Source of the DNA: Victivallales bacterium
GTDB taxonomy: Bacteria; Verrucomicrobiota; Lentisphaeria; Victivallales; GWF2-50-93
DNA: 39,164 nucleotides
Direction: 5' to 3'
Assembly (NCBI GenBank): GCA_041662825.1
Contig: JBAZRS010000001.1
Coordinates: 1-39,164, forward strand
Positions 8,321 to 34,307 of the stretch are shown here, one piece after another (within the stretch, counting starts at the first letter, position 1; every line of letters starts with the position of its first letter). The notes under the pieces are model-generated. The model saw only the letters and a list, made by a program, of their open reading frames with translations. It was not told the origin of the DNA and made no database searches. Made by a program: the position numbers and the translations under genes.

Positions 8321-8803
8321 ATGCCGAGCAGGAAAATGAAAACATCCGATCTGAAAAAATTGCTCTATTCTACCTTCGGGGATCTTCGCGACGATCAATT
8401 ATTGGGCCTTGTGGACTATGGAGAATCCAGGGGGGAGCCGCGAGAAGGCCAGATAGCCGTCGGCACCGTTATTCTTGAGCGCGTCGATCACCGGGATTGG
8501 GACGGCAAAACGATCAAGGAGGTCTGCCTTTTGCCTTATCAGTTTTCATGCCTGCTGCCCGACGATCCGAATTTCAAACAGCTAGCCCTGATCGCTTCGG
8601 GCTTCGAGGCGGCTCTGATGAAATCATCGGTTTTGACGGGATGCCATGAAATTGCAAAGGGCCTGCTTGACGGCACGATTCCGAGGAATCCACTTTTGGC
8701 AGAACATCACTGCATGCAATACAAAGTGGTAGGCTGCAAGGCTGCATGGGCAGATAAGATGCGACTGATTTTAATAATCGGTCACCACGAGTTTTATGTG
8801 TGA
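8321..8803 (+). CDS. endolysin, SleB-like cell-wall hydrolase (Hydrolase_2 type)
   Basis: The motif GESRGEPREGQIAVGTVILERV....WDGKTIKEVCLLPYQFSC matches the SleB/Hydrolase_2 signature (GE.RGE...G..AV..VI.NR...P.QFS). Confidence 0.8.
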   Translation: MPSRKMKTSDLKKLLYSTFGDLRDDQLLGLVDYGESRGEPREGQIAVGTVILERVDHRDWDGKTIKEVCLLPYQFSCLLPDDPNFKQLALIASGFEAALMKSSVLTGCHEIAKGLLDGTIPRNPLLAEHHCMQYKVVGCKAAWADKMRLILIIGHHEFYV

Positions 8804-8824
8804 TCCGATAGAAAGGAGGGCACT

Positions 8825-9001
8825 ATGTTAAACTGGAAAACAACCCTATTCGGGTTTTTGGCTGCGTTGCCGCAGCTCATCAATTTTATCACTCCGGCAA
8901 TTCCTGAGCCGTGGGGCGGATTGGCCTCAAGCATTGCGATCATTATCGCGTTCTATTTCGCAAAAGACAAGGAAGTGAAAAGCGCAACGGTTGGGCAGTA
9001 A
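8825..9001 (+). CDS. 58-aa two-TM membrane protein, holin candidate
   Basis: Strong RBS AAGGAGGG. Sequence MLNWKTTLFGFLAALPQLINFITPAIPEPWGGLASSIAIIIAFYFAKDKEVKSATVGQ has two hydrophobic segments and a charged C-tail. It is under 60 aa and so absent from the ORF track. Confidence 0.55.
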   Translation: MLNWKTTLFGFLAALPQLINFITPAIPEPWGGLASSIAIIIAFYFAKDKEVKSATVGQ

Positions 9002-9020
9002 ATAGCCAAAGATAAATACG

Positions 9021-9049
9021 TTGACACGAATAACAAATCATGATAGTCT
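9021..9049 (+). promoter_or_regulatory. sigma70-like promoter candidate upstream of the HNH gene
   Basis: TTGACA (9021-9026), a 17-nt spacer ending in TGa (extended -10), then TAGTCT (9044-9049). It lies in the 71-nt gap before the ATG at 9073. Confidence 0.35.
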
Positions 9050-9072
9050 CTGTCTGTCGTTAGGAGGCTATC

Positions 9073-9756
9073 ATGAAAAAATGCTTGCTTTGCGGTGAAG
9101 AAAAGCCATTAAATCGGTATGATATGCACAAAATGGGTAAACTTGGTCGGAACCCTCATTGTAAGGATTGCCGGAAAAAGGCTGCCCACGATAGGTATTT
9201 AATCAACCGAGAGGCAATCCTCCGGCAATCAAGGGATTATTATTTCGCAAACCGAGATACTTGCAACAGGCGACACTTGGATTATTACAAAGACAACAAA
9301 GAACGACTGTTGCGATTAAGTATGGATAAATATTACGCGAACTGGGAATCTGAGCGCAAGCGGAGAGATGAATCGACTCGGAGAAATTGGGACAATGTTC
9401 TAAAATATCAACGAGAGTGGAAAGCAGAAAGACGAGCCACGGATTATTCATACAGGGTTCATCAAAATATCTCACGCCGGCTGAGGGACAGCATTAAAAA
9501 GGGGGCAAAAAGACGGGTGACGTGGGAAAAGATGCTTGGATATTCAACAGAGAACTTAATGAAGCATCTTGAGTCTCGATTTACACATGGCATGTCTTGG
9601 GAGAATTATGGGGAGTGGCACATCGACCACAAAATCCCCATAGTCCATTTCAAATTATGCGGCGCTAACGATGAGGAGATGATTTCAAAGTGCTGGTGCC
9701 TCAATAATCTCCAGCCATTGTGGGCAAGGGATAATTTAATAAAGGGGGACCGGTAA
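9073..9756 (+). CDS. HNH endonuclease
   Basis: N-terminal CLLCG....CKDC zinc-ribbon-like motif. The C-terminal WHIDHKIPIVHF......NLQPLWARDNLIKG is an HNH signature. GGAGG RBS. AT-rich relative to neighbours. Confidence 0.75.
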   Translation: MKKCLLCGEEKPLNRYDMHKMGKLGRNPHCKDCRKKAAHDRYLINREAILRQSRDYYFANRDTCNRRHLDYYKDNKERLLRLSMDKYYANWESERKRRDESTRRNWDNVLKYQREWKAERRATDYSYRVHQNISRRLRDSIKKGAKRRVTWEKMLGYSTENLMKHLESRFTHGMSWENYGEWHIDHKIPIVHFKLCGANDEEMISKCWCLNNLQPLWARDNLIKGDR

Positions 9757-9760
9757 AGCA

Positions 9761-9922
9761 ATGAACCCAATTATGATGAAAATCCTGCTGGCCCTGGTGA
9801 TCGAATTATTGAAGCTGCTTAAAAGATATTATGACAACATGACCCCAGGGCAGCGGGAGGCATGGCAAAAAGCCATCAAAGACGTTCAAGACCCAATGGC
9901 CGGGAACCTGGAAGGGCCGTGA
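9761..9922 (+). CDS. 53-aa small protein with N-terminal hydrophobic helix
   Basis: Short ORF found by hand: MNPIMMKILLALVIELLKLLKRYYDNMTPGQREAWQKAIKDVQDPMAGNLEGP. The RBS is weak. Confidence 0.35.
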   Translation: MNPIMMKILLALVIELLKLLKRYYDNMTPGQREAWQKAIKDVQDPMAGNLEGP

Positions 9923-9934
9923 AGGAAGGGAACT

Positions 9935-10111
9935 ATGCTGAAAGACATCATCGAATCTTGCGGGAACGATAAGAACCTTGTTATTCTTGCCCTTGTCGCC
10001 GTGGCGATTTATTCACTTTATACCATGGGGCAATCAGCCGAAAATATCATTACGGCGGTCGTTTCCGGACTCTGCGGAATTGCAACCGGCAGGGCGACGG
10101 CGAAGCCATAG
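9935..10111 (+). CDS. 58-aa small membrane protein
   Basis: AGGAAGG RBS. Sequence MLKDIIESCGNDKNLVILALVAVAIYSLYTMGQSAENIITAVVSGLCGIATGRATAKP has two hydrophobic segments. Confidence 0.45.
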   Translation: MLKDIIESCGNDKNLVILALVAVAIYSLYTMGQSAENIITAVVSGLCGIATGRATAKP

Positions 10112-10115
10112 GATG

Positions 10116-10220
10116 TCAGCGCAGGATTCCGATTTTAATATCTTCTGCGAATATCCAGAAAAATACAACAACCAGCGCGAAAAGAAAGAAGAAAATAGCA
10201 ATGGAATGATACTCTTTCAT
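10116..10220 (-). CDS. 34-aa hydrophobic peptide, convergent with the preceding ORFs
   Basis: Minus-strand sequence MKEYHSIAIFFFLFALVVVFFWIFAEDIKIGILR, with GAGGGG upstream of the ATG. It is very short, so speculative. Confidence 0.3.
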   Translation of the reverse strand: MKEYHSIAIFFFLFALVVVFFWIFAEDIKIGILR

Positions 10221-10314
10221 CGGCAAATACCCCTCACGATCTCCCCTTGCCCACCCACTGCAAGTTAAACGGAATAGAACATCTTGAAATCTTAGCGGAA
10301 TTGCCCGAAGCTCA

Positions 10315-10355
10315 TGATTACGAATCAGTTGCTCTACCGGCTGAGCTACATCGGC
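10315..10355 (-). other. 5' fragment (positions 1-41) of a tRNA-Thr(CGU)-like sequence; putative attP core
   Basis: The minus strand reads GCCGATG TA GCTC AGCCGGTA GAGC A ACTGA TTCGTAA TCA. This gives an acceptor 5' strand, a complete D arm, the anticodon stem 5' strand and a loop with CGT at positions 34-36. Downstream there is no matching anticodon-stem 3' strand, T arm or CATCGGC acceptor strand. Confidence 0.7.
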
Positions 10356-11428
10356 TTGTTAATAATTCCGCCACCTTGAACCACTTTGATTTTTGGTTTT
10401 TGCTCACTACGGTCACTACGGCTAACCAAATTTAATCCATTTACCGCCCTTCGCATGGTGTTCATCGAGACCGCCGCGTAAATCTGCGTTGTCGAAATAG
10501 ATTTATGCCCCAGAAGTTTCTGAATGATCCTGATATCCGCCCCGGATTCAAGTAAATGTGTTGCAAAACTGTGTCTTATCATGTGGGGAGTGATCCTTTT
10601 GTCTATTCCGGCCCGGGACATGGCTGTCAATAAGGGTTTCCTCACATCCGTCAGCGGCTTCCCTGTCTTTCTTGACGGGAACAGCCATTTACCATCCTGA
10701 TTGATTCCGGTCAAGATTCTTTTCAAATCCTTTACTATGGGCACAAGTCTTTCCTTTGAACCCTTCCCCTTCACTTTCAGGCAGGATTGATCCTGGGCCA
10801 AATCTGACGGCCTGAGGTGAGTAACTTCATCCCTCCTGAGGCCGCAATAATACATTGTGGCATAGAGCGCCCTTGAAACGCCGGTCATATTATTTAAGAT
10901 AATTGCAATCTCGTCTCGAGACAGCACCGAGGGGAGGGCTTTCCGATACGGCAACGGCTCCCATTTCTCAGGCGGGGAGCAAAAACTCTGCTTCGCGCCC
11001 CATTTTATCATGTGTGTGAGGCACAGGATTTCAAGGTTTACGGCCCGGCTGCATGTCGGCCTTTCGGTCGTGTCCATCCTTTTCTTTTTATACGCGGTTA
11101 TCAGGCTGTTTGAAATCGCATCCGGCTGCATGTTGCCAAAAAACAAGAGAAGATGATTATTCAGCATCATCTTTTTATTTTTCAGGGTCGTCGGACTCTG
11201 CTGCATTTCTACCCATAATAAATAGTCCGTGGCGATTTCATCACAGGTTTTTGACTGAGACTGGACAGGCTTGCGGTAGGTTTTCCGAAGGCTGCGCTCT
11301 TGAGCAAGCGCCTCCTGCCGGGAACCGCAATAGGTGATCTGGTGCCGTCCGCTTTTCCGGCCGGTTTCATAGAAATCAATAATATGCTTTTTCGCATTTA
11401 CAGAACGGACAGACATTAAACACCACAA
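10346..11428 (-). CDS. int: tyrosine recombinase / phage integrase
   Basis: The C-terminal catalytic region has ...GLRRDEV..L..., HMIRHSFATHLLESGADIRIIQKLLGHKSISTTQIYAAV (the R..HxxR..Y pattern) and an N-terminal SAM-like domain. The start may be 11416 rather than 11428. The TAG stop lies inside the tRNA fragment. Confidence 0.95.
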   Translation of the reverse strand: MWCLMSVRSVNAKKHIIDFYETGRKSGRHQITYCGSRQEALAQERSLRKTYRKPVQSQSKTCDEIATDYLLWVEMQQSPTTLKNKKMMLNNHLLLFFGNMQPDAISNSLITAYKKKRMDTTERPTCSRAVNLEILCLTHMIKWGAKQSFCSPPEKWEPLPYRKALPSVLSRDEIAIILNNMTGVSRALYATMYYCGLRRDEVTHLRPSDLAQDQSCLKVKGKGSKERLVPIVKDLKRILTGINQDGKWLFPSRKTGKPLTDVRKPLLTAMSRAGIDKRITPHMIRHSFATHLLESGADIRIIQKLLGHKSISTTQIYAAVSMNTMRRAVNGLNLVSRSDRSEQKPKIKVVQGGGIINKPM

Positions 11429-11540
11429 ATAATTGAGACCGCTTCCACAACGTCAGGATGCGCGCATATTGCAGTTACGATTGATCGGCGGAAATAGACT
11501 ACTTTGCCGCCTTGTTTTGTGCGACGAGGGCTGGCGGCAC

Positions 11541-11891
11541 TTACGCCCCGCCGCTTTTTCTTCGCTCGACCGCCCCACCCGTCAAACGGGCGATTTTTTC
11601 CTTTGCTTCTGCAAGTTCTCTTTCACAAGCAACCAGGTTTTTCGTCAACAATTCGATGTGAGCAAGCGCGATCTTCATTCGTGGGTCGTCACCTCCTTTA
11701 TTTGTAATTTTATAATCAATTATGGGCTCGCCAAAATAACGAGAAAATTTATTGAGGGTACTATTTTTTATTTCAATATCTCCAAGCAAAACATTTTGAA
11801 CGGTTCCTAATGACACGCCAACACGCCGCGCAAGCTCACGACGGGACACGCCTTTTTCAATTTCTTTCTCAACCAATGTCCGGATATTCAT
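11541..11891 (-). CDS. cI-like repressor (XRE-type HTH with C-terminal coiled coil)
   Basis: The HTH is SRRELARRVGVSLGTVQNVLLG. It is divergent from a Cro-like gene and lies upstream of int on the same strand. Confidence 0.8.
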   Translation of the reverse strand: MNIRTLVEKEIEKGVSRRELARRVGVSLGTVQNVLLGDIEIKNSTLNKFSRYFGEPIIDYKITNKGGDDPRMKIALAHIELLTKNLVACERELAEAKEKIARLTGGAVERRKSGGA

Positions 11892-11897
11892 TTTTAT

Positions 11898-11925
11898 ATA
11901 TTACCCCGTAAATAGTTCTTGACAA
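11898..11925 (-). promoter_or_regulatory. PRM-like promoter candidate giving a leaderless repressor mRNA
   Basis: The minus strand reads TTGTCA (11925-11920), a 16-nt spacer, then TAATAT (11903-11898), followed by 6 nt and the ATG at 11891. There is no Shine-Dalgarno sequence. Confidence 0.35.
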
Positions 11926-11947
11926 GTGCATATTATTATGGTAGACG
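11919..11947 (+). promoter_or_regulatory. PR-like promoter candidate for the Cro-like operon
   Basis: TTGACA (11919-11924), a 17-nt spacer ending in TGg, then TAGACG (11942-11947). This is the same architecture as the promoter candidate at 9021. Confidence 0.4.
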
Positions 11948-11974
11948 ATAGTCAACCTAATGAGAGGATCGCAA

Positions 11975-12211
11975 ATGCAAAGACGTTTTAATCCAGAATC
12001 AATCAAAATTATCAGGGAAGCGCGTAACCTGAGCCGTGAGGAATTTGCGGCAATGTTAGGCGGCGACACATCCCGACAACTTATCCACGCATGGGAAACA
12101 GGAAAATATAAACCCTCCGTTGAATCATTGGCATCAATCGTAAACGCCCTAAGCCTAAAATCTGTGGACATTTTTTTTACCAACAGTGACCATCAAGATA
12201 GTAGACATTAG
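11975..12211 (+). CDS. Cro-like XRE-family HTH regulator
   Basis: The HTH is LSREEFAAMLGGDTSRQLIHAWETGKYKPSVESLASIVNAL. GAGAGGA lies 6 nt before the ATG at 11975; the ATG at 11960 in the ORF track has no RBS. Confidence 0.75.
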   Translation: MQRRFNPESIKIIREARNLSREEFAAMLGGDTSRQLIHAWETGKYKPSVESLASIVNALSLKSVDIFFTNSDHQDSRH

Positions 12212-12220
12212 GAGGCCACC

Positions 12221-12427
12221 GTGCCAAAAGAACCTACTGAAAATATCAGCGTCACCATGCCAATCAACCTTCTGCAAATCCTGGATCATTTCTGCTGTGA
12301 GTGCGACCTTAACCGCTCCCAGGCCATTGCAAGGGCGGTCAGGCTTTATGTCGGAACCAAAATAGCCAAGACTCCCGCCTTTTGGGATCGTGAATACCAC
12401 AGGCTTCAAGAAGAAGGCAAAATATAA
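12221..12427 (+). CDS. ribbon-helix-helix (CopG/Arc-like) DNA-binding protein
   Basis: GTG start 5 nt after AGGAGG. The pattern ISVTMPINLLQILDHFCCECDLNRSQAIARAVRLYV fits a beta-strand, helix, helix RHH fold. Confidence 0.6.
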   Translation: MPKEPTENISVTMPINLLQILDHFCCECDLNRSQAIARAVRLYVGTKIAKTPAFWDREYHRLQEEGKI

Positions 12428-12451
12428 CTCAGGTAAAAAATTATAAAAATT

Positions 12452-12622
12452 ATGAACCTCGAATCTGAGATCACAGAAATCAAGGAAAAGCTGGACACGG
12501 TTCTTCACCTTCTCGGCCACGGACGGGAGAAATCGGACGCACAGATACGGCGTGAGACGGTTGATATAGTGGAAAAAATCAAGCTCAGAGACGAACGAAG
12601 GGGGCGGAAAAATGCGACTTAA
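12452..12622 (+). CDS. 56-aa helical charged protein
   Basis: Hand-found ORF: MNLESEITEIKEKLDTVLHLLGHGREKSDAQIRRETVDIVEKIKLRDERRGRKNAT. No clear RBS. Confidence 0.35.
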   Translation: MNLESEITEIKEKLDTVLHLLGHGREKSDAQIRRETVDIVEKIKLRDERRGRKNAT

Positions 12623-12758
12623 AAGATACGTCAACCACTATTTCGTGCGGGATGTGGAGCGGGGCTTTGAATGGATCACGCCGTTTGTCAAGGTCGTGAT
12701 CTGGATCGGCGGATTCTATGCGGCCTATGTTGTCTATTTGGTTTTCTTGAAGGGATAG
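12612..12758 (+). CDS. 48-aa protein with C-terminal TM helix
   Basis: Hand-found ORF overlapping the previous one by 11 nt, with GGGGGCGGA upstream. Sequence: MRLKRYVNHYFVRDVERGFEWITPFVKVVIWIGGFYAAYVVYLVFLKG. Confidence 0.35.
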   Translation: MRLKRYVNHYFVRDVERGFEWITPFVKVVIWIGGFYAAYVVYLVFLKG

Positions 12759-23892: not shown

Positions 23893-24336
23893 ATGAAAGC
23901 TGAGTTAGGAATACAAGCCGGAAAAGAAGCTATGTGTGAGACCCGGAAAGAAATGATTAAGGCTAATCTTGGCCTTGATCGTGGTCTTGGTAAGCTAAAT
24001 CAGCTACTTGAGTGCACCAAACCTATCGCAGCAACCGTGATCCATAAGGCCGGTAAGGGTAAGGGAGCGCGTGATGCCGATGAAACCACAATGGATTTTG
24101 TCGAAGTACCCGATAATCAGTCACAGGCGAAGGCATTGGATATGTTATTCACACTGGGCGATTACTACCCCTGCAAAAAGCTGAAAGCCGACGTCAATCA
24201 TTCAGGCTCAATCATGGCAGCCGTGGCCTCCCATCTATCCAATAAGCCGAAAACAGAGGCAAAACAGCCGAAGCAACGTAAGGCCCCGGTAAAGAAAGTC
24301 GTTTATAAGCGATCCTCGAAGGGCAAAAAACGATGA
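23893..24336 (+). CDS. terminase small subunit candidate (Terminase_2-like C-terminal part)
   Basis: It is directly upstream of, and overlaps, terL. The motif VEVPDNQSQAKALDMLFTLGDYYP resembles the D...RLKALE.L.K..G.Y motif of small terminases. It has a basic C-tail and no N-terminal HTH. Confidence 0.55.
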   Translation: MKAELGIQAGKEAMCETRKEMIKANLGLDRGLGKLNQLLECTKPIAATVIHKAGKGKGARDADETTMDFVEVPDNQSQAKALDMLFTLGDYYPCKKLKADVNHSGSIMAAVASHLSNKPKTEAKQPKQRKAPVKKVVYKRSSKGKKR

Positions 24337-25916
24337 ACACAGCCGAAGATTTAAGCTGGCAGATCGACGAATGCGCAAGGGTGTGGGAATCGTTTGAATA
24401 TTTCCTTGATGAATACGTCTGGATCGAGGACAAGGAAGCCAAAAAAGCAATCAAGCTGGAATTGTGGCCGGAGCAGCGGCGAGTGGTCCCGGCGCTGGTT
24501 ATTGAGCAGCTCCTCATCCTGCTTAAAACCCGGCAGGTTGGCTTGACGTGGCTCGCCGCCGCCCTGGTCCTCTGGCTCGGAATCCGAAACCCGCTATTTT
24601 TGGCCGTTATCATCAGCGTCAATGAGGACCTGAGCATCGAATTTCTAAACCGCATTTATTTCATGCTCGACCGCTTGCCGGTGTGGCTGTGTCCGCCGAT
24701 TAAGGCCCGGACCAAACAGATTCTGGAGTTTTCCCATGACGGCGGGACGTCGGCAATAATCAAATCCATGCCCACAACAGAAATGGGCGCGCAGTCCAAA
24801 ACCCCAAACATCCTGATTATGGATGAAAGCTGCATGAACCGCATGGCCGCCGACATCTTCAATTCATCCTATCCCGGCATTGAGCAGGCCAAAGGGCAGG
24901 TCATTGTGATTTCAAATTCGATCAAGACCGGCCCGGGCTGGCCCTGGACACGCGATCTTTACCAGGGATCGATGCGCGGCCTCAATAAGTTCAAGCGGAT
25001 TTTCCTTGCATGGGACGCCCATCCGGGCAGGCCAAAAACGTTTTTACGGGACATGCGGGCCGCCGGGATGGACGAGGAAGACGTCTCTCAACATTACCCA
25101 GGGACCGAGGAAGAGGCGATAAGCACGCTGATGGGTTCGTACTTCGGGGATGTGCTTGCGCGGCATGACAAGGCCATGAGGGGCACCGTAGGCCGGTTTG
25201 TACGAGACGACAAAACCAAAGAAGTCAGTTTCGAGGAAGCGAAGGGAGGCATCGTTGAAATCTGGCGGTATCCGTATTTTCTCAACAAGAAATGGGATCA
25301 ATACAGGTGGCTGCGGCGGTACTGTGTCGGATCGGATGTTTCCGAGGGACAGGGCCGCTCGTATTCGGTCGCCTACTGCAAGGACCGGCATTTAGACGAG
25401 CCTGCGTGCCGGATCAGGTCGAACCGCATTGACGCCTGGTATTGGGCAGAGCAGCTCAAAATGATGTCGGATTATTACGAAAACGCAATCCTGACCGTTG
25501 AGCGCACCGGTGCCGGACAGACGACAGTGAAGCATTTGGAGGAATTGAACGCAAATCAGACGGTCCACCTGACCAGCGGCAGTACGGGATCGAACGTCAC
25601 GTCTCAATACGGCTGGCATGAATCACAGGAAGCCAAACACCTTCTGTCCGGCTATCTCAAGCAATGGCTCAGGTCCATGAGAGGGCGGTTGTATTGCGCG
25701 CTGCTGATCGATGAATGTTCAACCTGGATACAGCACGAAGGATCGGAACACGTCGGGCCGGAGGCGGGGAAATTAGGCGATTGCGTAATCGCTGCAGGCT
25801 GTATGCTTGAGGCGGATCAGTACCTTGAAAAGTGCGAAAAGATCATCCCCCCGGGCCGGGGATGGAGGGAGCGCCAGAAGGCAGAAAGGGAGAAGGGGGC
25901 AATATGGGCGGCATGA
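24333..25916 (+). CDS. terL: terminase large subunit
   Basis: Walker-A-like LKTRQVGLTW, Walker-B-like NILIMDES, a C-terminal nuclease-type acidic motif (CVGSDVSEG), a size of 527 aa, and a position before the portal gene. Confidence 0.85.
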   Translation: MNTAEDLSWQIDECARVWESFEYFLDEYVWIEDKEAKKAIKLELWPEQRRVVPALVIEQLLILLKTRQVGLTWLAAALVLWLGIRNPLFLAVIISVNEDLSIEFLNRIYFMLDRLPVWLCPPIKARTKQILEFSHDGGTSAIIKSMPTTEMGAQSKTPNILIMDESCMNRMAADIFNSSYPGIEQAKGQVIVISNSIKTGPGWPWTRDLYQGSMRGLNKFKRIFLAWDAHPGRPKTFLRDMRAAGMDEEDVSQHYPGTEEEAISTLMGSYFGDVLARHDKAMRGTVGRFVRDDKTKEVSFEEAKGGIVEIWRYPYFLNKKWDQYRWLRRYCVGSDVSEGQGRSYSVAYCKDRHLDEPACRIRSNRIDAWYWAEQLKMMSDYYENAILTVERTGAGQTTVKHLEELNANQTVHLTSGSTGSNVTSQYGWHESQEAKHLLSGYLKQWLRSMRGRLYCALLIDECSTWIQHEGSEHVGPEAGKLGDCVIAAGCMLEADQYLEKCEKIIPPGRGWRERQKAEREKGAIWAA

Positions 25917-26032: not shown

Positions 26033-26535
26033 ACCGTGACCAGCGTTTAGCGAAAAACAGGCGAATCAAGGAGATTCTGAAGCCAGATCGTCGGCTATTT
26101 GAGGCGTGCCAAGCCCTCAGGCATCACGTGGAGAACCCCAACGAATCGTCGGACATCCTGCTTTACGGCGGCGTGTACCGGCACAAAGACCAGGAAGCCC
26201 TCATGACCGTGACGGTTGACGGCGTTGAAGTCGGATACAAAGTCAAGCAATCTTCGGCCCTTGAAATGAACCCGTATTTTGACCGCTACGCCTACATGAA
26301 AGTACCGGGCCACAAGCTCAAGGATCTGTCGAAAAAGGAAATGAAGGCGATCCACACCGCGATCATGGACGCCTTTTTTGAACCGCAGCAGGGACCGATC
26401 AAGATTGAGGTCATTGGATGGGACGCCATGTTGTTTTGGCAGCGGTTTCAGGTGGCGTTCCTCTATGAAAAGTCGCCGGGGCTGGTATCGATTGCGGGAG
26501 GTGCAAACATTGACGCAGGGGGAAGGGTTCAATGA
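26029..26535 (+). CDS. hypothetical protein between terminase and portal (168 aa)
   Basis: GGGAGGGG RBS and ATGA overlaps at both ends. No motif recognised. Confidence 0.55.
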   Translation: MNRDQRLAKNRRIKEILKPDRRLFEACQALRHHVENPNESSDILLYGGVYRHKDQEALMTVTVDGVEVGYKVKQSSALEMNPYFDRYAYMKVPGHKLKDLSKKEMKAIHTAIMDAFFEPQQGPIKIEVIGWDAMLFWQRFQVAFLYEKSPGLVSIAGGANIDAGGRVQ

Positions 26536-28523
26536 CCATCGAAATTGACAAAATCTCAACGTCCGGAGCCGTCCCTGAGGTGATTGAGGTCTATCGGCTT
26601 TTAAAGCGGTACAAGGAAGACCCGGCTCGCGTGGATTGGGAACGCGACGTCTATAAGCGCGGATGGGATGTGGCCTTCGGCAAACAAGACGCCATGTGGA
26701 CCGAAGACGAAAAACAGGCCATGACCGACAAGAAACAGATTCCCATTGCGATCAATGATTGCGCGAAGGGCATCCAGGGATCATGCGCCATTGCGACGGC
26801 GAACAAGCCCGGCATACAGGTTAAGCCGATTGGGTCGTCGGACCTCTACGTGTCAGAGCTTATCAAGCGCGCCTTTGACTTTGGATGGGGCCAGAACGAC
26901 GGAAATGCGGTTATCTTTGAGGGCGTGCTGGAATCAAAGGTTGGCTCCTGCGGCTGGTTCGATGTGTATTGGGATGAATCAAAAATAACGAAGTGGTCAA
27001 CCGGGAAGATCGTTATCAAATCAGACGATCCCCTAGAATACTATTTTGACAAAAAGTCGAAGCGGCCCGACAAGCGGGATTCACACATCATCAAGGCCCA
27101 CCTGATAACTCGCAATTACGCCAAAGACAATTACGACGTCACCGATGATGACCTGGATTTCAAACCGGTTTCGCAGGATGAGGAACCCGGCAAGTCTTCC
27201 GCAGGCTCCCCTGGTGAAGACGAATATGCACGCATGGAGTCCGAGAAAGCCGCGAAGGACACCCGCTCAGATGAACCCGGCGAGGATGAAAAGGCCGACG
27301 TATGGGAAATCGAAGCATGGTTGATTAAGAAAATCAAGACGTTCTGCCTGTATTCCATCGACGACCGCACCGGGGAGCTGAATAAGTTTGAATTTAAGAC
27401 CAGAAAAGAAGCCGAAAACGCGCTGTTGAAGCTGCACGAAATCAAGCAGGGCATGGCGATTGCACAGTCGCAACAGGACGGCATTGAACCGCAAGTTTTT
27501 ACCATTGAGGACGTCGGCAAGATCAAAGAGATTCGCCTTGAAAAGCGGGTGCAGCGGATCATCGTAGGTAAAAAGCTGATTTCAGAGGAAGCAAACCCCT
27601 ACGGGACCGATTCAGACGGCGACCCCGTTGTGCCTAAAATCCCCATCCCGCACGACCGCAGCGCAAGCGGGTTTTTCGTCGGGCCTACCTATCGGGCCAT
27701 TGAGATCACGCGAAGCCGCAACAAGGGCAGGATGCAGGCAAAATATATCCTGACGCAAAACCTGACAGCGCCGATTGTCAGAACGGAAGGTTCAAAATGG
27801 CTGCGGGACAAGGTTCATGGCGACGAGCTTGTCGTTGATAAAGGCGTGCCCTTCCGTCCGTTCCGGCTATTGCCTGGCGCTACCACAGGGGAACTCATGG
27901 CGATGGACCAGCGCGACGAGATCGCAATCAACGATGAATACGATATGTCAGACGTTATGAAGGGCAAGCTGCCCCCCGGTGCGGATTCCGGCAAAGTGGT
28001 TATCGCATTGCAGGATCAGGCGGGCATGATGTCAACGCCGTTCATCGGCCAGAGGGTAGAGGGCTGTATTGTCAAAATAGCAAAAGTCATGCTGGCAATC
28101 ATGCTGAAGCATTGGACGCGGCAGATGTGGGAGCGCCTCATCGAACCCGACGAAAGAACGACATGGCAGCCCGACAAGGAAAAGAAAATCAATCAAGACA
28201 CCGGCGAACCCGAAGCCCCGCCGCCCGACGAAATCTCTCTGAAATGGGAGCAGGCCCTTGAATTGATCCGGCCGGCAGATCCCACGAAGCCGCCGGGGAT
28301 CGAATTGGATGAACTGGATATCAAGATCACGGCAGGCTCCACCATGCCGACAAACCGCATGGCGAAGTCCATGATGGCGATTGAAAAGGTCAATGCAGGC
28401 ATTTACGATGCAGAGGCCGCGCTGGATTACGACGACGACCCGAACAAGGAAAGGATTATTGCCCGGATGCGGCAGAAGGAACAGGCCATGATGCAGGCCG
28501 GAATGATGAAGGGGGCGAAATGA
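26532..28523 (+). CDS. portal protein candidate (663 aa)
   Basis: Its size and its position after terL and before the scaffold and capsid genes. It has an acidic surface insertion (DEEPGKSSAGSPGEDEYARMESEKAAKDTRSDEPGEDEKAD). The family was not verified. Confidence 0.65.
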   Translation: MTIEIDKISTSGAVPEVIEVYRLLKRYKEDPARVDWERDVYKRGWDVAFGKQDAMWTEDEKQAMTDKKQIPIAINDCAKGIQGSCAIATANKPGIQVKPIGSSDLYVSELIKRAFDFGWGQNDGNAVIFEGVLESKVGSCGWFDVYWDESKITKWSTGKIVIKSDDPLEYYFDKKSKRPDKRDSHIIKAHLITRNYAKDNYDVTDDDLDFKPVSQDEEPGKSSAGSPGEDEYARMESEKAAKDTRSDEPGEDEKADVWEIEAWLIKKIKTFCLYSIDDRTGELNKFEFKTRKEAENALLKLHEIKQGMAIAQSQQDGIEPQVFTIEDVGKIKEIRLEKRVQRIIVGKKLISEEANPYGTDSDGDPVVPKIPIPHDRSASGFFVGPTYRAIEITRSRNKGRMQAKYILTQNLTAPIVRTEGSKWLRDKVHGDELVVDKGVPFRPFRLLPGATTGELMAMDQRDEIAINDEYDMSDVMKGKLPPGADSGKVVIALQDQAGMMSTPFIGQRVEGCIVKIAKVMLAIMLKHWTRQMWERLIEPDERTTWQPDKEKKINQDTGEPEAPPPDEISLKWEQALELIRPADPTKPPGIELDELDIKITAGSTMPTNRMAKSMMAIEKVNAGIYDAEAALDYDDDPNKERIIARMRQKEQAMMQAGMMKGAK

Positions 28524-33317: not shown

Positions 33318-34307
33318 ATGGCAGATTGGACATTCGCAACAGGAAACGCGCTCACGCGGAAGGCGTGGGCTAAAAAATGGTGGATGGAGGCCAAAACCGA
33401 ATCGTATTTCTACGAAAACGGTTTTGTCGGAAAGTCAAACTCCAACATCGTTGTCGAGTTCCCTGACCTTGAAAAAGAGCAGGGCGACGTTATCACATAC
33501 GGGCAGTTAAGAGAGCTGTCCGGCGCGGGCGTGGCGAACGATTCGCAGATGGAAGGCGCAGAGGAAGCGCCGCTCACCTACGACGACACGCTGACTCTCA
33601 CGCAGATCAGAAACGCGATCCGAACGGCAGGCCGGGAAACCGAAATGCGGCCTTCCGACAACAGCATCAGGGAATACGCCTCTGAGCTTTTGAAGCGGTG
33701 GATGGCCGCGCAGATCGATCAGGCCATTTTCACGGCGGTGGAATCCAGCGCGACCAAAACCATCTATGGCGGGGACGCCACCACCACGGCAACCATCGAA
33801 GCCGGGGATTACATGACGCTTTCCCTGATTTCAAAGTGTGTGGCCTACGCAAGAAAAGCAAACCCGCTCATTATCGGACCCAACGTCAAAGGCAAGCCGA
33901 TGAATGGCGTGATCGTCATGTCGCCGGATCAGGCGTTTGACCTTTCGGAGCGTGACGCTGCATGGGCGCAGGCACAGCGCGAGGCGCAGCGCAGAGGCGC
34001 AGACAATCCCATCTTTACCGGGGCGCTCGGCATTCACAAAAACGTGCCGATCCATGAGCATCCACGGGTGGCAACGACAGCGGTATGGGGCACCAGTTCA
34101 AACCTGAACGGCGCGCAGGCGTCTTTCATGGGGTGCCAGTGCGCCGCCATTGCGTACTCGAAGCGGAAGATTTGGGAAGAGAAGACCTTTGACTTTGGGA
34201 ACAAAGCCGGTTTCTGCATCGGCGCGATTTACGGTATTTCAAAGTCGGTTTTCAACAGCGCCGACAATGCGTATGTCGCCGTTGATACGTACAGGACCAG
34301 CAATTAA
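33318..34307 (+). CDS. major capsid protein, N4-gp56-like family
   Basis: The N-terminus ...ALTRKAWAKKWWMEAKTESYF...F.G......IV.....L.KEQGDVITYGQLRELSGAGVANDSQMEGAEEA matches my recollection of the N4-gp56 capsid signature. Size 329 aa. GGAGGA RBS. Confidence 0.75.
   Translation: MADWTFATGNALTRKAWAKKWWMEAKTESYFYENGFVGKSNSNIVVEFPDLEKEQGDVITYGQLRELSGAGVANDSQMEGAEEAPLTYDDTLTLTQIRNAIRTAGRETEMRPSDNSIREYASELLKRWMAAQIDQAIFTAVESSATKTIYGGDATTTATIEAGDYMTLSLISKCVAYARKANPLIIGPNVKGKPMNGVIVMSPDQAFDLSERDAAWAQAQREAQRRGADNPIFTGALGIHKNVPIHEHPRVATTAVWGTSSNLNGAQASFMGCQCAAIAYSKRKIWEEKTFDFGNKAGFCIGAIYGISKSVFNSADNAYVAVDTYRTSN

What the first reader, a model, noticed from the sequence alone, without database searches (positions are those of the whole stretch)
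10315..10355. Putative attP carries the 5' half of a tRNA-Thr(CGU), and the integrase stop codon lies inside it
The minus strand from 10355 reads as tRNA positions 1-41 in canonical numbering: acceptor strand GCCGATG, a complete D arm, and an anticodon loop TTCGTAA with CGT at 34-36. After position 41 the tRNA-like sequence stops; there is no complementary anticodon stem, T arm or 3' acceptor strand. The integrase ORF runs into this fragment, so its last codons AAG CCG ATG TAG overlap tRNA positions 1-10. Flanking genes on both sides are phage genes (lysis and accessory genes on one side, int-cI-cro on the other), so this looks like attP rather than a prophage end. Elements that target tRNA genes normally carry the 3' portion, so that integration regenerates the gene behind its own promoter. 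An element carrying the 5' half would rebuild the tRNA from a phage-derived 5' half sitting downstream of int. The host promoter and original 5' half would be displaced to the other prophage end. The reconstituted tRNA-Thr would then depend on phage-side transcription.
Basis: partly seen in the sequence, partly recalled or inferred. Interest (0 to 1): 0.6.

Follow-up and report, generated by a model that had tools for sequence, protein, structure and literature searches.

The report
Phage attachment site carrying tRNA 5' half
A temperate phage of Syntrophales bacteria carries, right after its integrase gene, an exact copy of the first 41 bases of the host tRNA-Thr(CGU) gene as its integration site, so it replaces the front of the tRNA gene (and its promoter) instead of the usual rear part, a rare but already described arrangement.

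Summary
Minus strand 10355->10315 is tRNA-Thr(CGU) positions 1-41. No complete tRNA is detected, and the integrase stop codon TAG falls on tRNA positions 8-10. The contig is a roughly 42.5-kb circularly closing tailed-phage genome, so this is attP and not a prophage end. The 41-mer is identical to the tRNA-Thr(CGU) gene of at least 119 Syntrophales/Smithella genomes, but not to the tRNA of the bin that holds the contig. Three other phages, whose integrases are 73-77% identical in protein, carry the same 5' block. In the two attPs that can be read through, identity stops at position 39. A fifth relative (67%) is integrated as int -> complete tRNA-Thr(CGU) -> host purE. In that lysogen host homology starts at tRNA +1, the native promoter is gone, and the tRNA is chimeric at position 20. 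Sister integrases (60-66%) use the canonical 3' part of tRNA-Lys(CUU), with the same core layout and homologous P' arms. Reverse-orientation tRNA integration is rare but published (Zhao & Williams 2002). This is a well-documented new member of that kind, not a new kind.

The parts
10315..10355 (-). attP identity block. It is an exact copy of host tRNA-Thr(CGU) positions 1-41: acceptor 5' strand 10349-10355, D arm 10331-10346, anticodon stem 5' strand 10325-10329, loop 10318-10324, positions 39-41 at 10315-10317.
   Evidence: 41/41 identity to at least 119 Syntrophales tRNA genes; no complete tRNA.
10318..10329 (-). Inferred core: proximal arm ACTGA plus the 7-nt anticodon loop TTCGTAA as candidate overlap (crossover) region.
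   Evidence: In all attPs of the family, identity ends 1-3 nt after the loop. The L009 chimera places the crossover 3' of position 20. The exact cleavage sites are inferred, not shown.
10346..11428 (-). Tyrosine integrase gene. Its last three codons and TAG stop are encoded by tRNA positions 1-10.
   Evidence: PF00589, 1.9e-35; family P0002-P0032.
10245..10314 (-). Candidate P' arm (phage-specific side of attP). It includes TCATGAGC next to the core and AACTTGCAGTGGGTGG at about +51 to +67.
   Evidence: this side is homologous to the P' sides of P0003 (Thr 5' type) and P0006 (Lys 3' type) attPs. Binding was not tested.
10404..10421 (-). Tandem 9-mer CCGTAGTGA x2 inside the int 3' tail. This is a candidate arm-type Int binding site (P arm).
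   Evidence: Relatives have GGTGAG-type repeats at the same place. This is inference only.
11541..12634 (-). Lysogeny-module genes upstream of int on the same strand: a cI-like HTH_3 protein at 11541-11891 and two small ORFs. They are the likely source of transcripts that read through int toward the att site.
   Evidence: promoter-like sites at 11925-11898 and 12227-12198 on the minus strand; no minus-strand terminator down to attP.
8321..9756 (+). Phage genes on the other side of attP: a cell-wall hydrolase at 8321-8803 and an endonuclease VII-like gene at 9073-9756.

Best explanation
The window is most of a roughly 42.5-kb circular genome of a temperate tailed phage whose host belongs to the Syntrophales (Smithella/Syntrophaceae group). 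The stretch 10315-10355(-) is the host-identical block of its attP. The tyrosine integrase encoded immediately upstream recombines this site with the anticodon stem-loop of the host tRNA-Thr(CGU) gene. The phage copy covers positions 1-41 and lies downstream of int on the same strand. Integration therefore gives attR = int, phage tRNA 1 to about 38, host tRNA about 39-76, then host genes, which is an intact chimeric tRNA. It also gives attL = host promoter, host tRNA 1 to about 38, then the phage P' arm and lysis genes, which is a dead 5' fragment about 42 kb away. The int ORF is not altered by integration, because its stop (tRNA positions 8-10) lies on the phage-retained side of the crossover. 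The rebuilt tRNA has lost its own promoter. It is most likely made by read-through of the cI-int lysogeny operon followed by RNase P processing. Shown: the anatomy of attP, its identity to host tRNAs, its conservation in related phages, and an integrated relative with the predicted attR. Inferred: the crossover position within the loop, attL, and the way the rebuilt tRNA is transcribed.
For: (1) The sequence is as described and no complete tRNA is detected. (2) The contig closes on itself and has phage genes on both sides of the site. (3) The 41-mer is identical to at least 119 Syntrophales tRNA-Thr(CGT) genes. Almost all of their 3' halves end in CATCGGC, which pairs with the phage acceptor strand. 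(4) Conservation: P0003 and P0004 phages carry the block at 39/39 identity, and P0002 over the 26-30 nt that were assembled. Their int genes are only 68-75% identical in nucleotides, and their flanks show 13-33 matches in 60 nt. Precise integration and excision never exchange this block with the host copy, so its constancy implies selection. (5) The integrated relative P0005 (L009, L010, L011) has int, a 31-nt spacer, a complete tRNA-Thr(CGT), then purE and Sua5. Homology to the syntenic empty sites L062, L039 and L099 begins exactly at tRNA +1. The promoter conserved in L062 and L039 (TTGACA..TAAGATAAT, about 40-65 nt upstream) is missing. The spacer motif GCCCCGCAAAC is shared with the free attP of P0003. 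C20 is combined with a 3' half that carries T20 in 12 of 12 host genomes. (6) Sister integrases use tRNA-Lys(CTT) canonically, and attP/attR pairs are available for P0017 (L138 against L139). On the int strand every family attP in which the block lies between int and the core reads [identity block]-ACTGA-7 nt loop-T|P' arm (P0013's loop differs; P0008 and P0024 are laid out differently), and the P' arms are homologous between the two types. (7) No sigma-70-like site lies within about 220 nt upstream of the fragment, and no terminator lies between the cI-like gene and attP.
Against: No attL or attR of this exact phage was found, and no attL of any Thr 5' family member. IMG/VR holds neither the integrase family nor the block. 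The GTDB Syntrophales representatives hold no Thr 5' lysogen. The bin that holds the contig has a different tRNA-Thr(CGT), with 5 mismatches in positions 1-39 including both sides of the anticodon stem, so the host assignment rests on sequence identity to other genomes. The chimera argument in L009 rests on a single nucleotide. Expression of the rebuilt tRNA is untested. tRNA-Thr(CGU) is dispensable in some bacteria (established for E. coli thrW, from memory), so restoration may matter less than assumed.
Confidence: 0.85

Rival explanations
1. The site is used for integration as described, but the rebuilt tRNA is not expressed or not needed. On this view the 5' block is kept because Int or host factors bind it, or because it is recent, and tRNA-Thr(CGU) is in effect silenced in lysogens while ACG is read by tRNA-Thr(UGU).
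For: No promoter-like site lies directly upstream of the fragment. In the window and in P0002 the tRNA 5' end lies inside the int ORF. The bin and the hosts carry other Thr isoacceptors. From memory, thrW is dispensable in E. coli.
Against: The acceptor and D-arm parts, which are far from the core, are 100% conserved in phages whose int genes differ by 25-32% in nucleotides and whose flanks are unalignable. That is what selection for a working tRNA predicts. The acceptor strand is complementary to nearly all host 3' halves.
Confidence: 0.2
2. The fragment is a decayed phage-borne tRNA gene, or a relic of an old aberrant excision. It is not the working attP, and the phage integrates elsewhere or not at all.
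For: Phages often carry tRNA genes. No junction of this phage was observed.
Against: In the attPs that can be read through, the block sits immediately downstream of int, or of int plus an inserted HNH gene in P0003, and stops at the anticodon stem-loop (position 39 or 41). A relative is integrated exactly there. Sister phages have proven attP/attR pairs with the same layout.
Confidence: 0.04
3. The window is an integrated prophage, and the fragment is an attL-type junction (host 5' half joined to phage DNA) in a bacterial chromosome.
For: The contig was binned with a bacterial MAG of similar G+C, 49.9% against 50.2%.
Against: int reads into the fragment and its stop codon lies inside it. Phage genes lie on both sides. 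The scaffold ends overlap. No host genes are present. The bin's own tRNA-Thr(CGT) differs, and none of the 100 relatives sampled from its order has the 41-mer within 2 mismatches.
Confidence: 0.02

Closest known systems
[quoted passage not shown] Archaeal cases are cited with it by Krupovic et al. 2019 (PMC6563490): Krupovic & Bamford 2008, Krupovic et al. 2010, Gaudin et al. 2014, Cossu et al. 2017.
   Same: The element recombines with the 5'-distal part of a tRNA gene, so the 5' part and promoter of the host gene are displaced and the element supplies the new 5' part (general statement).
   Different: Here it is a free, circular genome of a tailed bacterial phage with attP readable. It has four related attPs, one attR, and canonical sister integrases for comparison. 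In two members the int stop codon lies inside the tRNA block. I could not read the 2002 paper (not held), so its details are from memory only.
Anticodon-loop class of tRNA att sites used by tyrosine integrases (Williams 2002, NAR 30:866; from memory, the paper is not held).
   Same: A tyrosine integrase lies next to attP. The identity block ends at the symmetric anticodon stem-loop, and the stem arms serve as inverted core sites. Sister phages of this very family (P0006, P0017, P0021, G359) fit the class exactly with tRNA-Lys(CUU).
   Different: The identity block runs from the loop to the 5' end of the gene instead of to the 3' end.
attP inside the integrase gene (SSV1-type integrases of Sulfolobus viruses; Mx8 intP/intX), from memory.
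   Same: The int ORF overlaps the attachment site.
   Different: In those systems the crossover lies within the ORF, so integration splits or re-tails Int. Here the stop codon (tRNA positions 8-10) is upstream of the crossover (3' of position 20), so Int is unchanged.
Stacks of tRNA 5'-half copies upstream of tRNA genes, noted earlier in this scan (e1-3981649 for tRNA-Arg; e1-754909 for tRNA-Thr(CGT)).
   Same: Copies of a tRNA 5' half, broken at the anticodon loop, lie upstream of the intact gene. I saw the same in metagenome contigs L152, L150 and L157/L161.
   Different: Those are integrase-less cassettes or scars in chromosomes. Here the 5' half sits in the attP of a complete phage next to its integrase.

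Membership tests
Tyrosine-integrase attP at a tRNA anticodon stem-loop | Tyrosine recombinase catalytic domain encoded next to the site | tested here: met
   PF00589 at 1.9e-35, residues 169-322. The translation shows the HxxR, LLGH and Y motifs.
Tyrosine-integrase attP at a tRNA anticodon stem-loop | Block of identity to a host tRNA gene that ends at the anticodon stem-loop | tested here: met
   41/41 identity to at least 119 host genes, ending 3 nt past the loop. Relatives end 1 nt past the loop.
Tyrosine-integrase attP at a tRNA anticodon stem-loop | The identity block is the 3' part of the gene (canonical polarity) | tested here: not met
   The block is positions 1-41 on the same strand as int. 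Canonical polarity is met by sister phages with tRNA-Lys.
Reverse-orientation (5'-replacing) tRNA-integrating elements | The element carries the 5' portion of the target tRNA gene | tested here: met
   four related phages carry it.
Reverse-orientation (5'-replacing) tRNA-integrating elements | In the integrated state the intact tRNA is at the element end that carries the block, and the host promoter and 5' fragment are at the other end | tested here: inconclusive
   The attR half was seen in relative P0005: int, complete tRNA, host genes, promoter absent, chimeric position 20. attL was not recovered for any family member. Analogous 5'-half-then-complete-tRNA arrangements were seen only for unrelated elements.
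Reverse-orientation (5'-replacing) tRNA-integrating elements | The element supplies transcription for the rebuilt tRNA | not testable with these tools
   A consensus scan finds no promoter within about 220 nt, only candidates upstream of the cI-like gene.
attP-within-int systems (SSV1 / Mx8 type) | Crossover inside the int ORF, so that integration changes the Int protein | tested here: not met
   The stop codon is at tRNA positions 8-10. The crossover lies 3' of position 20 and at or before position 39.
Phage-encoded tRNA gene | Complete cloverleaf detectable by ARAGORN or the Rfam tRNA model | tested here: not met
   0 genes. 21.6 bits, below the 29-bit threshold, with the T arm deleted.

The most novel reading that the evidence does not exclude
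In lysogens the host's tRNA-Thr(CGU) becomes a gene of the prophage immunity operon. It would be transcribed only as the 3' end of the cI-int message. In the window phage and in P0002, RNase P cleavage at tRNA +1 would cut off the last three codons and the stop codon of int, giving a non-stop int mRNA. That cleavage can happen only in the integrated state, because the complete tRNA exists only there. It would therefore be an integration-state-dependent retroregulation of Int, analogous in logic to lambda sib but built from the att site itself.
Probability: 0.1. Interest if true: 0.75.

Novelty: new member of a known kind. Interest (0 to 1): 0.45.

Why it matters
tRNA genes are the commonest docking sites of phages and genomic islands. 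Island-finding software largely assumes the rule that the element replaces the 3' end. This case is a clean, multiply replicated exception from uncultured syntrophic bacteria. It has free attPs, an integrated relative and canonical sister integrases side by side, so one can see what changes when polarity is reversed: only the block on the int side of the core. It also shows what does not change: the core layout and the P' arm. It gives a concrete system for asking how a tRNA gene survives loss of its promoter. It also warns that prophage and island callers that look only for displaced 3' fragments will miss such elements. The metagenome scan found about 20 further contigs with a tRNA-Thr(CGU) 5' half abutting foreign DNA.

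Tried and rejected
- INPHARED blastn of 9000-12500 gave only an 85-nt hit in an Aeromonas phage endonuclease gene.
- IMG/VR: the integrase search and two pattern scans for the tRNA block all came back empty.
- I searched the bin's own relatives (100 genomes of its order) for the 41-mer with up to 2 mismatches and found none. The bin is therefore not the host, and the contig is probably mis-binned.
- I searched 339 genomes of the order of G101 (a Syntrophales genome reached from locus L053) for the integrase. There was one hit, a Lys 3' phage contig and not a lysogen.
- None of the 119 host tRNA loci has a family integrase upstream.
- Searching the L009/L010 records for a second copy of the block (attL) failed because those records are not held. 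By arithmetic, neither contig is long enough to reach attL.
- tblastx of the 28 metagenome '5' half' contigs against the phage gave no hits, so they belong to other elements.
- Zhao & Williams 2002 and Williams 2002 are not held.
- Idea rejected: that polarity flipped because the tRNA-Thr stem-loop looks like the reverse complement of the tRNA-Lys stem-loop. Counting by eye on the sequences, the loops differ at 2 of 7 positions in the same sense (CTCTTAA against TTCGTAA) but at 4 of 7 in the reversed sense (TTAAGAG against TTCGTAA). Similarity would therefore favour canonical polarity. The shared palindromic stem ACTGA/TCAGT permits either polarity but does not explain the choice.
- The integrase tree does not resolve whether the Thr 5' users form one clade.
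- The cmscan pairing of GCCGATG with CTTCGGGC, a T-arm-less mini-tRNA, is not conserved in the P0003/P0004 attPs. I treat it as chance.

Full report
**1. The observation**

The minus strand from 10355 to 10315 reads GCCGATG-TA-GCTC-AGCCGGT-AGAGC-A-ACTGA-TTCGTAA-TCA. These are tRNA positions 1-41 in standard numbering, with anticodon CGT. The next bases (TGAGCTTCGGGC...) do not continue a tRNA. ARAGORN finds no tRNA in the whole window. The Rfam tRNA model gives 21.6 bits, below its 29-bit threshold, only by deleting the T arm. The ORF 10346..11428(-) is a tyrosine integrase (PF00589, 1.9e-35). It ends AAG CCG ATG TAG, so its stop codon is tRNA positions 8-10.

**2. attP, not a prophage end**

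The window is bases 1-39164 of a 42,608-base scaffold, which continues with 10 N and then 3.4 kb. The last 140 bases of the scaffold repeat bases 3-142 at 98.6% identity. The sequence therefore closes on itself at about 42.5 kb.

Phage genes lie on both sides of the site:
- On one side, a cell-wall hydrolase (8321-8803) and an endonuclease VII-like gene (9073-9756).
- On the other side, int, a cI-like HTH gene (11541-11891), terminase large subunit (24333-25916), portal (26532-28523) and major head protein (33318-34307).

No host gene is present.

**3. The host tRNA**

The bin that contains the contig has its own tRNA-Thr(CGT), at C34:6156-6231. That gene differs at 5 of the first 39 positions, including compensated changes in the anticodon stem. 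None of the 100 relatives sampled from the bin's order has the 41-mer within two mismatches.

Almost all are labelled Syntrophales, Smithella, Smithellaceae, Syntrophaceae or Deltaproteobacteria. All 120 matches continue GTAGGTC..., so they are complete tRNA-Thr(CGT) genes. Their T arms vary, while nearly all end in CATCGGC, the complement of the phage's acceptor strand. The host is therefore a member of the Syntrophales, and the contig is probably mis-binned.

**4. Relatives of the integrase**

The protein search gave a family of about 30 integrases at 35-77% identity. I fetched the genomic contexts of twelve, plus one more found by searching the Syntrophales genomes.

(a) Members carrying the tRNA-Thr 5' block:
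- P0002 (77% identity; L135-137) has the same overlap, AAGCCGATGTAG-CTCAGCCGGTAGAGCAACTG. All three of its contigs stop inside the block, as expected where an assembly graph branches at a repeat shared with the host.
- P0003 (76%; L004-L008) has int, an inserted HNH gene, then GCCGATG...TTCGTAAT|AATGAGC.
- P0004 (73%; L173) has int, 36 nt, then GCCGATG...TTCGTAAT|TACGGG.
- In P0003 and P0004 the block is 39/39 identical to the window's. The int genes are only 68-75% identical in nucleotides, and the 60-nt flanks show 13-33 matches in 60.
- With a crossover in the loop, precise integration and excision never exchange this block with the host copy. Its constancy therefore argues for selection.

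(b) An integrated relative:
- P0005 (67%; L009, L010, L011) is integrated. The order is a cro/cI-like pair, an ORF, int, a 31-nt spacer, a complete tRNA-Thr(CGT), then purE, Sua5 and other host genes.
- Homology to three syntenic genomes without the prophage (L062, L039, L099) begins exactly at tRNA +1 and runs through purE and Sua5.
- L062 and L039 share a conserved promoter-like region, TTGACA...TAAGATAAT, about 40-65 nt upstream of the tRNA. L009 has the int 3' end there instead.
- The spacer motif GCCCCGCAAAC next to the tRNA in L009 recurs at the same place in the free attP of P0003, so that DNA is phage DNA.
- The L009 tRNA combines C20 with a 3' half that goes with T20 in 12 of 12 host genomes, including the syntenic ones. 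C20 occurs only with another T-arm type. This is the signature of a phage 5' part joined to a host 3' part, and it places the crossover 3' of position 20.

(c) Canonical sisters:
- P0006, P0017, P0021 and a phage contig in a Syntrophales genome (G359:C3) carry the 3' part of tRNA-Lys(CTT) downstream of int, on the opposite strand. P0013 carries a Lys-like 3' part there whose loop (GATATTG on the int strand) matches no tRNA I identified.
- P0017 and P0010 were also caught integrated, next to a complete tRNA-Lys(CTT). In the longer P0017 contig (L139) that gene ends a host tRNA cluster.
- Every family attP in which the block lies between int and the core, Thr-type or Lys-type, reads on the int strand [identity block]-ACTGA-(TTCGTAA or TTAAGAG)-T|P' arm.
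- The P' sides are homologous across the two types. TAATGAGC (P0003, Thr) matches TAATGGGC (P0006, Lys). TTACGGGT (P0004, Thr) matches TTACGTGG (P0017, Lys). All share a downstream motif of the form ...ACTT...AAAACT(C/T)(A/G)CCAC(A/G)GG.
- The tRNA-Lys(CTT) and tRNA-Thr(CGT) of these hosts share the same D arm and the palindromic anticodon stem ACTGA/TCAGT.
- What differs between the canonical and the reversed phages is therefore only the block between int and the core.

(d) Other arrangements in the family:
- P0008 (64%) has the 3' part of tRNA-Thr(CGT) downstream of int on the same strand.
- P0024 (43%) belongs to a conjugative element. Its int is followed by a displaced tRNA-Lys 3' fragment and then host genes.
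- The integrase tree does not resolve the 60-77% group, so the number of polarity switches is unknown.

**5. Mechanism**

Shown:
- The attP anatomy.
- Its identity to the host gene.
- The family-wide core layout.
- The predicted attR in a relative, with the native promoter lost.

Inferred:
- Int binds the stem arms and exchanges strands in the 7-nt loop.
- Integration yields int, phage positions 1 to about 38, host positions about 39-76 at one end. It yields host promoter, host positions 1 to about 38, P' arm at the other end.
- Int itself is unchanged, because its stop codon (positions 8-10) stays with the phage part.
- No sigma-70-like site lies within about 220 nt upstream of the block on the minus strand. 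Promoter-like sites lie upstream of the cI-like gene and the two ORFs before it, and no terminator was found between them and attP. The rebuilt tRNA is therefore probably made by read-through of the lysogeny operon and cut out by RNase P. This last step is untested.

**6. Wider occurrence**

A metagenome scan for AGAGCAACTGATTCGTAATCA followed by a non-G base returned 28 contigs. About 20 hold a full tRNA-Thr(CGT) 5' half, with diverse acceptor stems, abutting unrelated DNA. None is related to this phage. Examples:
- L157/L161: a repeat of about 105 nt, consisting of the upstream region plus tRNA 1-41, flanks a 1.4-kb DUF3800 gene. The second copy continues into the intact tRNA.
- L152: two 5' fragments in tandem upstream of the intact gene.
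- L162: host dnaK region, then a 5' half, then an excisionase-type HTH_17 gene.
- L151 and L169: a 5' half followed by an integrase on the other strand.

Earlier notes of this scan describe similar stacks.

**7. What is known**

Krupovic et al. [quoted passage not shown] They cite Zhao & Williams 2002 and four archaeal studies. I could not obtain the 2002 paper. The arrangement here is therefore a rare, described kind. New here are the phage family, its host clade, the side-by-side canonical sisters, and the int stop codon inside the block.

**8. Limits**

- No junction of this phage was seen, and no attL of any Thr 5' member.
- Read mapping was unavailable.
- The chimera evidence is a single base.
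- Expression is inferred.

**Verdict**

I put the confidence that this is a working, reversed-polarity attP at about 0.85. It is a new member of a known but rare kind, of moderate interest.

Noticed in passing
whole window / G000:C1: The phage scaffold is binned with a MAG whose own tRNA-Thr(CGT) (C34:6156-6231) does not match the attP block. None of the 100 relatives sampled from its order has the block either. The contig is probably mis-binned, and the true host is a Syntrophales member.
   Followed up: partly
L004:7005-7538 (also L005-L008): In the P0003 phage an HNH endonuclease gene is inserted between int and attP. Its ORF runs through the tRNA block and stops at the TAA of the anticodon loop (TTCGTAA).
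   Followed up: no
window 10404-10421; L012, L138, L173 and G359:C3 int 3' ends: The variable C-terminal tails of these integrases are encoded by short tandem repeats: CCGTAGTGA x2 here, GGTGAG/GTGGTGAG elsewhere. An inverted copy (CTCACCAC) lies in the P' arm. These look like arm-type Int binding sites, so the int ORFs run into the P arm of attP.
   Followed up: no
L157:4630-6252 and L161: A direct repeat of about 105 nt (promoter-like upstream region plus tRNA-Thr(CGT) positions 1-41) flanks a 1.4-kb insert that encodes only a DUF3800 protein. The second copy continues into the intact tRNA. This is an integrase-less cassette of reversed polarity that brings its own promoter copy.
   Followed up: partly
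L152:1582-1859; L150:1456-1609: One or two tRNA-Thr(CGT) 5' fragments, with different acceptor stems and broken after the anticodon loop, sit 37-160 nt upstream of an intact tRNA-Thr(CGT). They look like scars of successive 5'-replacing integrations.
   Followed up: no
L191:1049-1200 (P0008): A 64%-identical integrase is followed on the same strand by the 3' part of tRNA-Thr(CGT), from the loop to CCA, plus a terminator. That terminator is nearly identical to the phage-borne terminator of the Lys-type attPs. The family therefore seems to use the tRNA-Thr(CGU) stem-loop from both sides.
   Followed up: no
L012:9600-12474, L138:13036-15762: Related phages (P0013, P0017) carry a reverse transcriptase (RVT_1) next to an mtd-like gene, which is a diversity-generating retroelement near the tail genes. 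I did not check whether the window phage has one.
   Followed up: no
L030, L133, L115, L080, L128 (host tRNA-Thr(CGT) loci): Several Syntrophales genomes have other, distantly related integrases just downstream of the same tRNA on the opposite strand, which is the canonical 3'-side arrangement. This tRNA is thus a hotspot used from both sides.
   Followed up: no
L044:351-3992: Two complete tRNA-Thr(CGT) genes lie 3.5 kb apart with similar upstream sequence in a Syntrophales MAG. This looks like a segmental duplication rather than an att pair.
   Followed up: partly
L143:1-11200 (P0024): An integrative conjugative element (TrbI, TraI_2, ParB, HerA-like ATPase) has a 43%-identical integrase. That integrase is followed by a displaced tRNA-Lys(CTT) 3' fragment and then host genes.
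   Followed up: no
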